Positions 6,845 through 63,840 of a DNA stretch of 64,000 nt are shown here, in pieces (positions within the stretch are counted from its first letter, which is position 1; every line of letters starts with the position of its first letter). Source of the stretch: Chiloscyllium plagiosum (taxonomy: Eukaryota); contig NC_057721.1 in the NCBI RefSeq assembly GCF_004010195.1, positions 37,663,093 through 37,727,092 on the forward strand, read 5' to 3'. The notes beneath the pieces were generated by a model that was not told the DNA's origin, ran no database searches, and worked only from the letters and a program-made list of their open reading frames with translations. The position numbers and the translations under genes were made by a program.

Positions 6845-7452
6845 AGCTGTGGTTCTGTTCGCCGAGCTGGAAGTTTTTGTTGCAAACATTTCGTCCCCTG
6901 TCTAGGTGACATCCTCAGTGCTTGGGAGCCTCCTGTGAAGCACTTCTGTGATGTTTCCTCCGGCATTTATAGTGGCCTGTCCTTGCCGCTTCCGGTTGTC
7001 AGTTTCAAACTGTCCGCTGTAGTGGCCAGTATATTGGGTCCAGGTCGATGTGTTTGTTGATGGAGTTTGTGGATGAGTGCCAAGCTTCTAGGAACACACT
7101 GCAGCACACCAGAACTGCAAAAAGAGGAAGAGGAACACCTATACAAGGTATTTGCAAAAAACGGATCCCATGCAAGGGCTGCACAAAACACTATATAGGA
7201 CAAACAGGAAGACAGCTAACAATCCGCATCCATGAACATCAACTAGCCACGAAACGACACGACCAGCTATCCCTAGTAGCCACACACGCAGACGACAAGC
7301 AACATGAATTTGACTGGGACAACACTACCATTATAGGGCAAGCCAAACAAAGAACAGCCAGGGGACGAAACGTTTGCAACAAAAACTTCCAGCTCGGCAA
7401 ACAGAACCACAGCAACGAGCACCCGAGCTACAAATCTTCTCACAAACTTTGA
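6845..7452. mobile_element. Penelope element with GIY-YIG endonuclease fragment, inverted configuration, 11-bp TSD
   Basis: ORF 7048-7452 has IPCKGCTKHYIGQTGRQLTIRIHEHQ (GIY-YIG). 6846-6900 is the reverse complement of ~7359-7413. ATTTTATTTAA is duplicated at 6834-6844 and 7453-7463. Confidence 0.9.
6882..6921 (-). ncRNA. Minimal hammerhead ribozyme motif in Penelope pLTR
   Basis: Minus strand reads GCA-CUGAGGA-U-GUCACC-UAGACA-GGGGAC-GAAA-UGUU-UGC: core boxes CUGANGA and GAAA, a stem II, and a 3-bp helix I. Confidence 0.65.
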
Positions 7453-11240: not shown

Positions 11241-11714
11241 TGCACTGTTTCTTTGCTGTAGACTCTCTATGGGAAAGATTTAAATGACAAGTAAATGGTT
11301 AGGTTTAAATCAGATGGGACTGTAAAATATTAAATATCTGAATCCCATTACATGCCTCATATTTATGCACTGAGCCTTGGGAAGCCTGGCAGCTATAGTA
11401 AAGTGAGAACCTATGGATTGAGAAGGAGGCAAGTTCCTTTCCACCTACCCAGTGAATCCTGTGTATTTGTCTCATCAACAGAGCAAACTCCATGACTATA
11501 TTCCATCTATTTTCCTACCAGCACTGCAACTCCTGCCCTAATAGTCTCCTCTTGATTCTCCATCCCAGGAAATCTGTCCATGACTCTGGAATACTTGTCC
11601 ATCCATGGGTGCTTCTCCACTCCTCCAACCACATATTCCAAGTGGGTCAGAAATTTCAAGTCTATCCCTATGTAACTAAAATTGCAACACAACATGGACA
11701 GATATCTCATTATC

Positions 11715-11910
11715 GAGAAAAAGTGAGGGCTGCAGATGCTGGAGATCAGAGCTGAAAATGTGTTGCTGGAAAAGCGCAGCAGGTCAGGCAGCATCCAAGG
11801 AACAGGAGAATCGACGTTTCGGGCATAGGGCTTATGCCCGAAACGTCAATTCTCCTGTTCGTTGGATGCTGCCTGACCTGATGCGCTTTTCCAGCAACAC
11901 ATTTTCAGCT
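11715..11910. mobile_element. Penelope pLTR-derived palindromic element with 16-bp TSD
   Basis: Near-perfect hairpin 11749-11911 centred on ~11830. CAGATATCTCATTATC is duplicated at 11699-11714 and 11911-11926. Confidence 0.9.
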
Positions 11911-12539
11911 CAGATATCTCATTATCTTCCAGGTTGTCATAGCTATTGCACTGTTTAACTGCTGTAGTCTTACCCCTGCCAAGAAGTTTAACTTTGAAAA
12001 CTCCAAATCAGCTTCCCTTATCCTTGAGTTATCTTTTTCACTCTCCTATTCATTTCAACTTCGGGGCATACTGCAATTCACTTAGCTTTGTAAATTTATG
12101 GTTATGATATTGCTCTGTGATAAAATGTTATCTCTTTTTAAATTATAAATGTTTATTGTCATAGAATTTCATTTATTCTTTGTGCAATTCCATTTGAATG
12201 TTTAAATATTTTAAATGTTAGGATGAATTGTGACACTTTTGGAACAAGAAATTAATTAGATATTTAGCGCTGAGATTCCTGAGGGGGAATTTGGAGGGTT
12301 GTGCATCTTAGAATTCCCTATTCAAAAAACTATGGATGCTAGTTCTAAATATATTAATGATGAGGTTGATCAATTTCTGTATGAGTGAACTAAGAGGTAG
12401 GAAGTTCCAGGTGCTTTAGCAAGTCAGCCATGAATATGTTAAATGGCTGGATATTCTCAAAAAGGAAGTTACTTATTCCTACTACTTACCTAAATATTTT
12501 GCACGGACATCTTTTTTTCATTAGTGTCTTTTTTTTCTT

Positions 12540-18635: not shown

Positions 18636-19044
18636 AAAAGGAGCAAATTACTGCAGATGCTGGAATCTGTACTGAAAATGAAAAATGCTGTAGATCACAG
18701 TGGGTCAGGTAGCATCCTTGGGGAGAAAGAACAAGCTAAAGTTTTAAGTCTAGATGACTCTTCATCAGAGCCAGAGTGACATGTTCAAGGGACAGTATTT
18801 ATTGCAGACGTCGATGGGTGAGAAAGGATGTTGACAGTTCACTTAATTGGATCATTTAATCTGAACTATCAACATCCTTTCTCCCCTAGCAGTCCACCAC
18901 TCCCCCCACATTGCATAAATGCTGCTTCCTCCACACTTCATTTTAGCTCTAATGAAGAGTCATCTAGACTCAAAACGTTAGCTTGCTTTCTCTCCATGGA
19001 TGCTGCCTGACCCGCTGTGATCTCCAGCTTTTTTTGTTTTCACT
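18636..19044. mobile_element. Penelope pLTR-derived fold-back element (~370-bp imperfect palindrome)
   Basis: Outer arms ~18672-18771 / ~18946-19044 and inner palindrome ~18816-18886. Decayed hammerhead GCTCTAATGAAGAGTCATCTAGACTCAAAACGTTAGC at 18946-18982. Confidence 0.8.
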
Positions 19045-19484
19045 GAAATAACTAGGTCAGATGCTCCTTTCAGAACGACCGATGAACTAATCCAATATGC
19101 ATCAGAAAGCAGGGCCCCTGTAGTGTTAATGGAAAGTTGTTTTTACTAGTTTACATAAATGCCATTAGCTGGCTTTTGGTTCAAAATAATGAAGGATTGA
19201 AGTTAGTTTAGAAACTCAAGATGGAAAGATTTTCTACTGCTTTGAAAAGACCTGACTGAGTTAGATGCAAATATAGTTTGAACAGTTAAAATATTGAACA
19301 GTTCAGGGAAAGTACTGTTACCTGCAGAAAAATATAGTTTTTGTAACTTCCAAAACATGAGTGCTAGGTTATAAATCTGCAGGTTAATTAAAACTGATTT
19401 GGAGATGCCAGTGTTGGACTGGGGTGTACAAAGTTAAAAATCACACAGCACCAGTTTATAGTCCAACAGGTTTAATTGGAAGCA

Positions 19485-19520
19485 CACTAGCTTTCGGAGC
19501 GCCACTCCTTCATCAGGTGA
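19485..19520 (-). ncRNA. Minimal hammerhead ribozyme motif (minus-strand copy)
   Basis: Exact reverse complement of 19528-19563. Confidence 0.7.
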
Positions 19521-19527
19521 GTCACAA

Positions 19528-19563
19528 TCACCTGATGAAGGAGTGGCGCTCCGAAAGCTAGTG
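19528..19563 (+). ncRNA. Minimal hammerhead ribozyme motif
   Basis: UCAC-CUGAUGA-A-GGAG-UGGCG-CUCC-GAAA-GC-UA-GUG: intact core, 4-bp stem II, helix I CAC/GUG, palindromic AGCU in place of helix III. Confidence 0.75.
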
Positions 19564-20384
19564 TGCTTCCAATTAAACCTGTTGTATAACCTGGTGATGT
19601 GTGATTTTTAAAATTAAAACTGAGAAAGTCTAAACTTTTAATTGTATGAGGACTAATGTAAGAAAACCTCACAATTCATGGGAAGGAACTGAGGAGAATC
19701 AGTTAAATTGAACTTCAAGGTCTGAAGTAGAGTGGTAATGTCTCTGGATTTGCATCTCTGGAATGGACAGTGTTGGGAAATGGGATGGGACTTTGTTTTG
19801 CAATGTGTTTTAAATCTTTCAAACTATGTTTATATTTGGTTTGTATATTTTGTTTTCTTTCTTTTGTGTAATAAACTTCTCTTTTGCTGTTAAAGAAACT
19901 CAACAGTCTCATGTGACTATTTATTCAGTGAAATAAACCTCACATTAACTAAAAATGAAAAAAACACAAGCCAGGTTTCACTTATGGATTGGACTTGTCC
20001 ATTGGTAGCATCAGCTGGGGTCATAACATCAGTTAACCCTGAGAAAATAAAATAAAGAAATAACATCCAACATATGTAGATACAAATACAAATAATTAGA
20101 GAGGATGGTGACCAGTACAAAAGCAAATAAAAAGGATATGCCTTCGGGTTTCCTTAAGATGTAGAGGTTTTAACCTGAGACCATGGTTTTAAAGTGTTAT
20201 CTTGCATCCTCAGAACTAGTAGATATCACAGATCTTTAAGTTCTCAGTGTCCTAATGTTTCTCTCCAACACATTTATCATTGGTAGCCTTCCTGTTCAAG
20301 AAACTAGAGAGCACTGTCTCCAACTGGTTCAAGCCACAAATCCATCTTGCAACTTCTGTCAGAAACAGCTCCCCCGAAGTACAA

Positions 20385-39150: not shown

Positions 39151-40898
39151 CTTATCTCCTTATGATCTCATGATGCAGGGCAATGAGAATTAATTAAAAA
39201 TAGTGAGATCACTGATGTCAGAGAAAGCAGCATAAAAATGCGAAACAAATAACAAACTAAAGGCACAAGAGACCAAAATTAAAGTCAGTCAGAAAAACAA
39301 AGGGTTTAAAAAATAGAGAGAGAGAAATGAAAAGTGCAGAAAGATGGAAAACTAGTTTTAAAAAAATCCAGCAATAAACTGTATCGGGATTGCCTATAGT
39401 GAAGTAATATTGGATTGAATAGTGAATTACAAATATTATATTGCATTAACCTTGCATTTAAAAAAATCTGAATGCACACAAGTACAGGTGCACGTAGGAC
39501 AAAATTGTTTCATCAGTTGGAAGGAGATCATACAATAATATGGGAAAGTGGTACTTACAGTCTGTTTTGGACATTGAGGTACAAACACCATGATTGGTAA
39601 CAACAGTTGGTACAAAGCATTACATTTAATAATGCTCAAATCAGCACAATATAGACCCAGGAGATTTTAATTGCTTTTTATTAGACCCAGTTCTCATATT
39701 GAAGTCACGTGTCATGAAAATCAAATAAGGTGCAGCTATTTTGTATGTAGCTAGCAGCAGGTGGAGGTGGATGAGGATGAGTCATCCATGCAGTTACTTT
39801 TGTAAAGAACAAAACACTCTGTTTTCACAGCTCGTTGTGGGAGGACATTAGGACATTAAATTGGGCAACTGAAAAGCTAATTCCATCTAATGCTGGTTTG
39901 TGCAATTGATAGAATATAATTAATCATTTTAATCATGTAAATTTTGTTTATGTTCCACACATAACTGACATCTGAATGTTCTTGTCTGGAGAAGTGTCAA
40001 ACTACAGCTTTATTTTCATACTCAGTGTTCATGCTTCCTGTTTTGTTATGTCAGATATTTTATTTTGGTTAATATTTTGGTTAATAAATGGAGTTGTGTC
40101 AACCACAGACCACGTATCTCCATATAGTATCAATGGCGACATGATTTGCAATTGTGAACTGTTTAGTTCCTGTTTTAGTACCTGATGTATCTGCATAAGA
40201 ATTGAAGGACAATGACAAAGGACTGAAAATGCATCAGACACTATGGGATAAGATAGATAACCTAATATTATAGTGGGAATTCAACTTAATTTGATGGAGT
40301 GAATTTGTAGGTAGAAATGTATTACTCATACCCTGACTAGAACAGTCAATGAGCAGTTCGCTAAATTTTGAAAAGGAGAGGCAAGCACACAATAATACAC
40401 TTGGACAGCCTTAATAAAATGGACATGGCATTTTCATCCCAACTTGATTACCGCTGGTTGAGCAATGCCAGAACACGATAATGACCACGAGTGAAACTGC
40501 AAGGAAGCCCTAAGAAGTTGAGACACAATACCAGAGTTGGTGTTCTTGCTCAGAGATTGATACCCCTTGTGAGAGGGCATTTGGAGTTTGGACACCAGAG
40601 GTCAACAATGGAAGCCACAAAGGGGGAATTATCTCCAACAAACACAGGGATCTCCGAAGGAAGATACCTCACTTCCTTCCTGCATTTTCCTGCATAATGG
40701 CCTTTATAGATCTTTCAAGCAGCCTTCAATGGTCTGCTCCAAACAACTTTACCGCTTTGTATCTTTGACACATATTTCAATCTCTTCAAATGTGCACCTG
40801 GCAATTACTGGTGAGATGAAAATCATCATGTCTATTATATGCTCTGACATGTGAAAATATATGGAGAGCAACAAGGTTAACTTCACTTATTTCAGTTA

Positions 40899-41540
40899 TG
40901 ATTTGGAGATGCCAGTGTTGGACTGGGGTGTACAAAGTTAAAAATCACACAACACCAGGTTATTGTCCAACAGGTTTAATTGGAAGCACACTAGCTTTCG
41001 GAGCGTCGCTCCTTCATCAGGTGATAGTGGAGGGCTCAATCCTAACACACAGAATTTATAGCAATGATTTACAGGGTGATGTAACTGAAATTATACATTG
41101 AAAAATTGATTGTCTGTTAAGTCTTTCATCTATTTGATTACCATGATAGTTTCACTTCTTTCATTTGTAAATCACAAAACCTTTTTTAAAAAAGTTGCAT
41201 TCTCAGTTAGCTGTTAAAAATGGTGATAGCTAGACAATATGTTGAAGGTGTTAGCCCCCTGTGTTCTATGTCTATGCCATGATGTTTAGATTGATTCTAA
41301 TCTAAAGAGTGAGATAACGGAGTTTTACATGAATTCATATAGTTTTTGAGCAAAGTATAATGTAACCCTGCAAGTACAAATTCACCCCACAAAATATATG
41401 TGTGCATGTGGGTCTGTGTGTGTGTGTGTGCGTGCATAGTGCAATGGTGGTCACCTATAATGTGACATGAACCCAAGGTCCCGGTTGAGGCCCTCCTTAT
41501 GGGTACCGAACTTGGCTAACAGCCTCTGCTTGGCTCTCCT
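40899..41540 (-). mobile_element. Penelope 3' end (GIY-YIG C-terminus, UTR, pLTR) with 13-bp TSD
   Basis: Minus strand AKQRLLAKFGTHKEGLNRDLGFMSHY. CTTATTTCAGTTA is duplicated at 40886-40898 and 41541-41553. Confidence 0.9.
40989..41024 (-). ncRNA. Minimal hammerhead ribozyme motif in Penelope pLTR
   Basis: UCAC-CUGAUGA-A-GGAGC-GAC-GCUCC-GAAA-GC-UA-GUG: intact core with 5-bp stem II. Confidence 0.75.
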
Positions 41541-63369: not shown

Positions 63370-63840
63370 TAGTGATTTACTGCAACCAACTAGCTTTTTA
63401 GGCATTTCTGAGAGCATTTAAGAGTCAATCACAATGCCGAGGTTCTGATGTCACACTTTGCCCAACCTGAGAAGGACATTAGTGAACTAGATGCATTTTT
63501 ACAACAATCAACATTGTTTCATGGTCACTATTTGGCTAGTTCTTCATTCCAAATTTAATAAATGAATTCAAATATGACGATTTGCTATGGTGTGATTTTA
63601 ACCCCTGTTAACTGTGCATTAGCCTGAGTCTCTGGATTACTAGGAGAAAGTGAGGACTGCAGATGCTTGAGATCAGAGCTGAAAATGTGTTGCTGGGTCA
63701 GGCTGCATCCAAGGAGCAGGAGAATCGACGTTTCGGGTATGAGCCCTTCTTCGGCCCTCCTGAAGAAGGGCTCATGCCCGAAACATCAATTCTCTGGATT
63801 ACTAACCTCGTGATATTACCACTGCATTACAACCCTCCCC
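63370..63840 (-). mobile_element. tRNA-type SINE (family B partner) interrupted by Penelope pLTR
   Basis: GAAGGACATTAGTGAACTAGATG core, head at 63795-63840. Confidence 0.7.
63643..63790. mobile_element. Penelope pLTR-derived element with partial palindrome and 14-bp TSD
   Basis: TCTCTGGATTACTA at 63629-63642 and 63791-63804. Hammerhead-like CTGAAGA-A-GGGC-TCAT-GCCC-GAAA at 63760-63783, inverted against ~63728-63753. Same family as 11715-11910. Confidence 0.9.

What the first reader, a model, noticed from the sequence alone, without database searches (positions are those of the whole stretch)
19398..19611. Palindromic Penelope mini-element with an intact hammerhead ribozyme motif on each strand
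Seen: a 214-bp TSD-flanked insertion folds into a ~85-bp hairpin and has an identical intact CUGAUGA/stem II/GAAA..UA motif on both strands. Whichever strand is transcribed contains one ribozyme plus its exact antisense. Known: Penelope pLTRs carry minimal hammerheads that cleave mainly as dimers (Cervera and de la Pena). Inference: the fold-back may mask the ribozyme and make such insertions tolerated in transcribed regions, or the unit may be a non-autonomous retrozyme-like element.
Basis: partly seen in the sequence, partly recalled or inferred. Interest (0 to 1): 0.7.

Follow-up and report, generated by a model that had tools for sequence, protein, structure and literature searches.

The report
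Cap-ended Penelope palindrome, not a retrozyme
This 214-base mirror-image insert is one of thousands of short stubs of a Penelope-type jumping gene in what is likely a shark genome, each likely built on landing from two short DNA copies of the start of the element's RNA joined head to head, so its two ribozyme motifs are likely idle passengers and not a self-spreading unit.

Summary
In detail: 12-bp TSD, 82-bp hairpin, 36-nt one-sided tail, and a minimal hammerhead core on both strands. The insert is the terminal repeat (pLTR) of a Neptune-like Penelope element; its tail ends at the start codon of an RT/GIY-YIG ORF found elsewhere in the genome. It is not a propagating unit. The genome holds at least 3,411 such palindromes, 46 of 50 sampled junctions differ, and the centre closest to this one occurs only 50 times, with the tail on either side. 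Arm ends pile up just before the hammerhead, 30-32 nt behind a TATA box, with a 10-fold excess of one non-templated base, as expected from copying a capped RNA start. They do not pile up at the cut site. Best reading (0.75): both nicked target strands prime short cDNAs that run off the uncut RNA's 5' end and are joined. Fold-back masking holds thermodynamically but is probably unnecessary. Family RNA reads show a used poly(A) site just behind the ribozyme. The architecture is in print; I did not find the cap and two-ended reading in print. This scan has reached the same reading many times at other loci of this genome.

The parts
19386..19397 (.). Left target-site duplication, 12 bp; its last 3 nt overlap the element's terminus (possible primer-template microhomology, inferred)
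   Evidence: (D7)
19398..19433 (-). 36-nt one-sided Penelope 'tail'; in the parent element it ends at the ORF start codon
   Evidence: 95% to L213:7133-7210, ATG at L213:7210
19434..19522 (-). Tail-bearing arm (element sense on -); likely reaches the inferred RNA start (+1 at 19522) with a 2-nt deletion near its end
19471..19476 (-). ATTAAA poly(A) signal of the tailed arm; family RNA reads carry poly(A) about 11-16 nt downstream (near 19455-19460)
   Evidence: (817 of 1808 laid reads with poly(T) loose ends at 19455)
19485..19519 (-). Minimal type I hammerhead motif, 3-bp stem I, predicted cut after 19488
19523..19523 (+). Single C at the centre: likely the non-templated base opposite the RNA cap (in this one copy it could also be the tail-less arm's genomic -1 base)
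19524..19611 (+). Tail-less arm (element sense on +) from the inferred RNA start (+1 = 19524); 3-nt deletion after 19584
19525..19565 (+). Minimal type I hammerhead: core 19532-19538, extra A 19539, stem II 19540-43/19549-52, GAAA 19553-56, palindromic AGCU, predicted cut after 19560
   Evidence: criteria from PMC4209133
19572..19577 (+). ATTAAA poly(A) signal of the tail-less arm, paired inside the hairpin
19612..19623 (.). Right target-site duplication, 12 bp
40898..41520 (-). Longer non-palindromic copy of the same family: tail, hammerhead, and upstream pLTR with TATAAA at 41060-41055, 32 nt before the inferred start at 41028

Best explanation
This is a dead-end insertion of a Neptune-like Penelope retroelement, likely made in one event in which both strands of the cut target primed short DNA copies of the 5' end of the element's capped, uncut RNA, and the two copies were then likely joined head to head. 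Shown: the family, the one-sided tail, the TSD, the varied junctions, the pile-up of arm ends at one position behind a TATA box, the non-templated base there, and poly(A) addition behind the ribozyme in family transcripts. Inferred: (1) the endonuclease makes staggered nicks about 12 nt apart, leaving two 3' ends; (2) reverse transcription starts internally at two sites 36 nt apart, one at the ORF start codon (tailed arm) and one upstream (tail-less arm); (3) both copies run about 90-125 nt to the cap and often add a C opposite it; (4) the two 3' ends are joined, often after trimming to a microhomology; (5) because poly(A) is added before the two start sites, a normal transcript carries them only at its 5' end, which would make such stubs the default product and long copies the product of read-through RNA. 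The hammerheads are inherited passengers and would be locked in the hairpin on either strand.
For: Family and parent: the tail is 95% identical to the sequence just before the ATG of a broken RT + Cys-linker + GIY-YIG ORF (L213), whose 3' pLTR is 93% identical to the arm (L119). Homologs carry RVT_1, and one carries GIY-YIG above cut-off. Independence: exact palindromes number 693, 2472 and 246 in three gap bins; 46 distinct junctions in 50; shared centre 50 copies, tail left 5 and right 5 of 10. Defined RNA start: 79 of 106 arms at risk end in +15..-3 (0.039 per nt) against 0.002-0.010 in five other bins. TATAAA lies at -30 to -32 in 42 of 59 long-arm hits (some loci counted twice). After +1 (template G) the next base is C 2744, A/T 1227, G 18403; one base further it is C 569, A/T 2671, G 15163, a 10.5-fold shift. 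All 30 of 30 such loci leave the parent sequence after the C. An extra G marks capping in L1 (PMC11702581, passage). Two cDNAs: in 30 of 58 palindromes the tail-less arm reaches at least 4 nt further 5' than the tailed arm, so neither arm contains the other. Arms differ at a 2-nt subfamily indel in 6 of 50 and at the loop II centre in 11 of 44 (8 not by micro-inversion), against 3.7% background. Purified Anolis PLE protein nicks and extends both strands, starts at two internal sites that define the tail, and uses uncut RNA (PMC11167929). Uncut template: two-base departures at the cut site number 116, against 140 and 244 at the neighbouring positions; true ends were 15, 18 and 11 of 30. Poly(A): 941 of 3772 and 817 of 1808 laid reads of one polyA single-cell run.
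Against: No 5'-end RNA data: the start site and cap are inferred from DNA. 15,163 of 22,374 arms that reach +1 run on into upstream sequence, so stubs are not the only product. Many arms end 2-15 nt short of +1, which needs trimming. The arms are more alike than random pairs: 9 minor alleles are shared by both arms against 0.8 in permutations (39 pairs), and both arms pass +1 together more often than chance (6 both, 5 one, 47 neither; p 5e-5). In this copy the inner 57 bp are perfectly symmetric and share a loop/indel combination seen in only 3 of 93 arms. These facts fit one RNA used twice, later arm-to-arm conversion, or snap-back. Deletions at a cruciform tip after insertion could also create unequal arms. 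The in vitro support comes from a different clade (Poseidon), whose start sites lie inside the ORF. The RNA reads are family-level (mostly 85-99% identity) from one sample.
Confidence: 0.75

Rival explanations
1. Snap-back or self-priming: one cDNA (or an antisense template, as Arkhipova et al. 2013 proposed) folds back at the RNA's 5' end and copies itself, and the tail arises when the endonuclease resolves the second end.
For: Arms share minor alleles above chance (9 vs 0.8). Arm lengths correlate (rho 0.32). This copy's inner 57 bp are perfectly symmetric. Self-priming is the published proposal (PMC3846280, passage), and Craig 2021 attributes the tail to endonuclease resolution.
Against: In 30 of 58 palindromes the tail-less arm has 5' sequence that the tailed arm lacks, while the tailed arm has the tail. 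Subfamily markers differ between arms (6 of 50; 11 of 44). The extra base occurs on both arm types and in solos. Tail-less solos exist.
Confidence: 0.15
2. A non-autonomous palindromic unit (retrozyme-like or SINE-like) that is transcribed and re-inserted whole from one or a few master copies.
For: The 39 best DNA matches besides the copy itself are 91-94% identical over nearly the whole length, and many of the 30 aligned share the centre, but these were chosen by similarity to the query. Four junction strings recur twice in 50.
Against: 46 of 50 junctions are distinct. The shared centre occurs in 50 copies against 2472 palindromes of that size class, with the tail on either side 5:5. There are no head-to-tail units. 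A core on both strands survives in only 16 of 50.
Confidence: 0.04
3. The fold-back is favoured by the host because it hides the ribozyme (or the poly(A) signal) in transcribed regions, so palindromes survive where solos are purged.
For: The hairpin outcompetes the hammerhead by 67-73 kcal/mol, and the antisense arm is made first on both strands. The poly(A) signal is used in family RNA and lies inside the stem. 60 of 90 tail-bearing copies are palindromic.
Against: The palindrome follows from the insertion chemistry without selection. Copies without an adjacent inverted arm are common (30 of 90). Minimal hammerheads cleaved weakly even as dimers. The one raw RNA run laid on this locus had no reads on the flanks adjoining the element (2% of the run read).
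Confidence: 0.06

Closest known systems
Typical insertion unit of endonuclease-bearing Penelope-like elements (Pen2a_Av, PMC3846280; general scheme, PMC8557442; passages seen)
   Same: Inverted 5'-truncated pLTR, 30-40-bp tail at one end, TSD, head-to-head palindromic junction.
   Different: Here both arms are only the pLTR's first ~90-125 nt with no ORF, in thousands of copies. The arm ends share a position and an extra base. Those papers propose self-priming or endonuclease resolution.
[quoted passage not shown]
   Same: Conserved core, extra nucleotide between 9 and 10.1, G10.1-C11.1, palindromic 15.2-16.2, short helix I. The paper already notes dual motifs ~100-700 bp apart on opposite strands.
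   Different: Helix II is 4 bp here (7-8 bp in Schistosoma). The two motifs are 15 nt apart and fully base-paired with each other's antisense.
PAc/Poseidon of Anolis in vitro (Frangieh et al. 2024, PMC11167929; parts 1-2 of 4 read)
   Same: Two internal start sites that define the tail; both target strands nicked and extended; uncut RNA is the template.
   Different: Different clade. Its start sites lie inside the ORF, while here they lie at and before the ATG. In the parts I read it does not explain inverted insertions or report a cap base.
L1 twin priming and cap-derived extra G (PMC11702581, passages)
   Same: Both target ends prime cDNA, discrete TSD, end-joined inversion junction, extra G at full-length 5' ends.
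   Different: In L1 the second primer starts internally near where the first cDNA stops, so the pieces do not overlap. Here both copy the same RNA stretch, which gives a palindrome.
Animal non-LTR retrozymes (bioRxiv 10.64898/2026.07.22.740005, part 1 and passages; PMC7229834 seen as search listing only)
   Same: Non-coding, type I hammerhead, derived from PLE pLTRs.
   Different: Retrozymes are head-to-tail tandem units with a ribozyme in each. This is head-to-head with variable junctions and does not spread as a unit.

Membership tests
EN+ Penelope-like element (Neptune/Nematis type) | pLTR linked to a single ORF with RT and C-terminal GIY-YIG endonuclease | tested here: met
   Met for the family, not for this ORF-less copy. 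Broken ORF in L213 7165-9832 starts at the tail's end and is followed by the same pLTR. Homologs carry RVT_1 and GIY-YIG. The L213 pieces themselves pass no Pfam cut-off.
EN+ Penelope-like element (Neptune/Nematis type) | CX2-5CxxC motif in the RT-EN linker (PMC8557442) | tested here: met
   A C-x2-C-x2-C run precedes the GIY-YIG-like motif in L213:8891-9832.
EN+ Penelope-like element (Neptune/Nematis type) | Placement in the Neptune clade by RT phylogeny | not tested
   No tree built; Neptune and Nematis were not told apart.
EN+ Penelope-like element (Neptune/Nematis type) | Inverted 5'-truncated copy, 30-40-bp tail at one end, TSD | tested here: met
   36-nt tail, inverted arm, 12-bp TSD. 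The modal perfect TSD is 12 bp, in 10 of 35 scorable of 50 palindromes.
Minimal type I hammerhead (min-HHR) | CUGANGA and GAAA boxes, UH triplet, extra nt after 9, G10.1-C11.1, palindromic helix III | tested here: met
   All present on both strands (criteria). A second family in the window shows different, still complementary stems.
Minimal type I hammerhead (min-HHR) | Match to a curated Rfam hammerhead model | tested here: not met
   Searches gave no hammerhead family; such minimal motifs were defined with a relaxed descriptor.
Minimal type I hammerhead (min-HHR) | Self-cleavage as a dimer | not testable with these tools
   Needs an assay. The genome shows no pile-up of copy ends at the cut site.
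Non-LTR retrozyme | Head-to-tail tandem units, each with a hammerhead | tested here: not met
   Head-to-head arrangement.
Non-LTR retrozyme | Spreads as a unit with shared ends and internal junction | tested here: not met
Non-LTR retrozyme | Circular RNA intermediate | not testable with these tools
   The only raw RNA run with laid reads is a polyA single-cell library.
MITE / fold-back DNA transposon | Terminal inverted repeats at both ends and fixed internal structure | tested here: not met
   One end carries a 36-nt tail outside the repeat; centres and tail-less ends vary.

The most novel reading that the evidence does not exclude
Penelope-like elements integrate by obligatory two-ended priming. 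A protein dimer primes both nicked strands at two start sites near the RNA's 5' end, sometimes on two different RNA molecules, and the pLTR works like a true LTR (TATA, capped start, ribozyme, poly(A) site, then the priming sites). Capped run-off palindromes are therefore the default product, and only read-through transcripts give long copies. This would explain the inverted ends, the one-sided tail and the need for tandems in one scheme.
Probability: 0.55. Interest if true: 0.7.

Novelty: new member of a known kind. Interest (0 to 1): 0.42.

Why it matters
As an element it is ordinary: one of thousands of stubs with a published architecture. The copies together bear on an open question, how Penelope-like elements make their inverted ends and tail. 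They give sharp, testable predictions: a capped start 8 nt before the hammerhead core, an extra base opposite the cap, an uncut template, and two separately primed arms. The family also scatters a poly(A) signal that is used in RNA over many thousands of sites. That signal may matter more to host transcripts than the ribozyme does.

Tried and rejected
Rfam found no hammerhead; the miRNA hits are generic hairpin matches far below their gathering scores. The shared centre among the best DNA hits first suggested a master copy; I rejected this as query bias after position-ordered samples. Ribozyme-cut RNA as the template: one event with both arms ending at the cut site (L298, duplicated as L299), but no genome-wide peak. 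The indel tally used wrong offsets and was redone. Pfam on the four broken ORF pieces was empty. L214 held no parent ORF. No RNA holder was listed for this stretch. X20 laid nothing. No contig spans the locus or shows an empty site in relatives. Host gene context was not resolved: 62 stop-to-stop frames of 90 aa or more were listed but not scanned. Lunse et al. (PMC5785218) is not held; it is known here only through the review PMC6765202 (passages). I read no supplements; they, and subscription papers such as Arkhipova 2006, may already describe these junction features.

Full report
Observation. The insert at 19398-19611 is flanked by a perfect 12-bp duplication. It folds into a hairpin with an 82-bp long stem, -156.1 kcal/mol, z -21.9; the first 36 nt lie outside that stem. 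The same hammerhead core lies on both strands, with the predicted cut after 19560 on + and after 19488 on -. Stem I differs between the two (3+2 bp versus 3 bp). Rfam has no matching hammerhead model, but all sequence criteria of the minimal hammerheads of Cervera and de la Pena are met (PMC4209133, parts 1-2 read). That paper already mentions dual motifs on opposite strands.

Family. The window lies in a 3.56-Gb assembly. The best named homologs of the linked protein are from sharks, so a shark is likely. Three more copies lie in the window. The tail's exact 32-mer occurs 13,579 times. Walking out from a long copy led to a broken ORF in L213 with RT motifs, a Cys linker and a GIY-YIG-like motif. 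Its ATG directly follows a sequence 95% identical to the tail, and downstream lies a pLTR 93% identical to the arm. One piece is 59% identical over 197 aa to an 881-aa RVT_1 protein. The linker motif points to the Neptune/Nematis type (PMC8557442, passages); I built no tree. Inverted pLTR, one-sided tail, TSD and palindromic junction are the published Penelope architecture (PMC3846280, passages).

Is it a unit? The best DNA hits looked uniform, but they were selected by similarity. In 864 kb sampled without regard to the element (800 kb plus the window) there were 25 clusters, and the 6 short palindromes had 6 different centres. Exact patterns count 693, 2472 and 246 palindromes with gaps of 1-31, 32-62 and 63-92 nt. 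The first 50 of the middle class along contig 1 have 46 distinct junctions, and 16 keep the core on both strands. The centre nearest to this copy occurs exactly 50 times; in the first 10 the tail is left in 5 and right in 5. These are recurrent independent events, not descendants of a master.

Where arms end. Of the first 90 exact tail matches along contig 1, 60 have an adjacent inverted arm; 1 gave no call, and L143 and L299 were dropped as duplicates for the statistics. Taking +1 as the A 8 nt before CUGAUGA, 79 of 106 arms at risk end between +15 and -3, 4 to 20 times the per-base rate of the other bins. The caller is a local alignment to 7 natural copies and tends to stop a few bases early. 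Long copies have TATAAA at -30 to -32 in 42 of 59 hits (some loci counted twice). Genome-wide, the base after +1 on the cDNA strand is the template G in 18,403 arms, C in 2,744 and A or T in 1,227. One base further it is G 15,163, C 569, A or T 2,671. The C excess is 10.5-fold higher at the first position than at the second. All 30 inspected loci leave the parent sequence after the C, in tailed arms, tail-less arms and solos. An extra G is the known mark of cap copying in L1 (PMC11702581, passage). I infer a capped RNA start; no 5'-end reads were available. In this copy both arms appear to reach +1 with one C between them, the tailed arm with a 2-nt deletion.

Role of the ribozyme. Copy ends do not pile up at the cut site: 116 two-base departures there against 140 and 244 at its neighbours, about half of them true ends. 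The template was therefore mostly uncut, as for the Anolis element in vitro (PMC11167929, parts 1-2 read). On either strand the antisense arm is transcribed first, and forcing the hammerhead stems costs 67-73 kcal/mol, so masking is predicted. It is probably not needed: a single motif of this class did not cleave in vitro, and copies without an adjacent inverted arm are common.

One cDNA or two. In 30 of 58 palindromes the tail-less arm reaches at least 4 nt further 5' than the tailed arm; in 20 the reverse holds, and 8 are level. A single folded-back cDNA cannot give the first class without later deletion. Arms differ at a 2-nt subfamily indel in 6 of 50 and at the loop II centre in 11 of 44, against a 3.7% background and 45-53% for random pairs. 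Against a strict two-RNA model: shared minor alleles (9 vs 0.8 expected in 39 pairs after 7 skipped for indels or truncation and 4 not parsed), correlated read-through, and this copy's perfect inner 57 bp with a rare loop variant. Two primings, usually on one RNA or one source locus and sometimes on two, with some later conversion, fits all of this. The Anolis protein extends both target strands from two start sites that define the tail.

RNA. In one polyA single-cell run (2% read), 941 of 3772 reads laid on the long copy and 817 of 1808 laid on this locus carry poly(T) loose ends about 9-19 nt past the ATTAAA signal. The downstream sequence is GU-rich, not A-rich, which argues against internal priming. 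These are family-level reads. None lay on the flanks adjoining this element, so its own transcription is not shown. The poly(A) site lies before both priming sites. A normal transcript would then carry them only at its 5' end, which would explain the flood of stubs (inference).

Novelty. The architecture and the motif are in print. Seven literature searches and the passages read (also PMC2377424; PMC6765202; the 2026 retrozyme preprint) showed no account of cap-marked run-off arms or of a pLTR poly(A) site; subscription papers and supplements were not seen. My reading was recorded before I consulted the scan's notes. Those notes report the same reading, including the poly(A) site, at many other loci of this genome; they are unchecked and not independent support. 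Verdict: a real, ordinary Penelope insertion and not a retrozyme-like unit, useful as one of many footprints of the insertion mechanism. Interest 0.42.

Noticed in passing
window 18673-19042: Older inverted-repeat insertion of another family, with a decayed hammerhead-like motif at about 18949-18988 whose stems differ from this family's but still pair; 350 nt left of the finding.
   Followed up: partly
window 11715-11911 and 63644-63794: A palindrome of a third family with a 15-bp TSD (11700-11714 / 11912-11926), whose arms meet inside stem II so that the CUGANGA box is lost; a relative at 63760 keeps the box.
   Followed up: partly
window 6846-6903 / 7356-7413, motif at 6918 (-): 58-bp inverted repeat about 450 nt apart with a hammerhead-like motif beside it.
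   Followed up: no
L230, L231, L232 and other matches: Junctions hold 2-3 tandem re-copies of the few bases at the inferred RNA start, resembling telomerase-like reiteration or templated insertions of end-joining.
   Followed up: no
L298 and L299 (contig 1, 13 kb apart): Both arms end at the predicted ribozyme cut site, with a short templated filler between; likely one event duplicated.
   Followed up: partly
P0007, P0008, P0009, P0012: Shark host-gene models (NOXP20-like, PPP1R12A-like, septin 5a, XRCC5 isoforms) contain pieces 60-81% identical to this element's ORF: exonised copies or annotation errors.
   Followed up: no
stem II loop, window 19544-19548: In most copies stem II and its loop form a 13-nt near-perfect palindrome, and the central base is T, G or A; T/A swaps may be micro-inversions.
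   Followed up: partly
window 19227-19411: A 185-nt contig of run X1 matches the left flank and junction with no difference, so the insertion is present in that sample too; whether the run is RNA is a guess.
   Followed up: no
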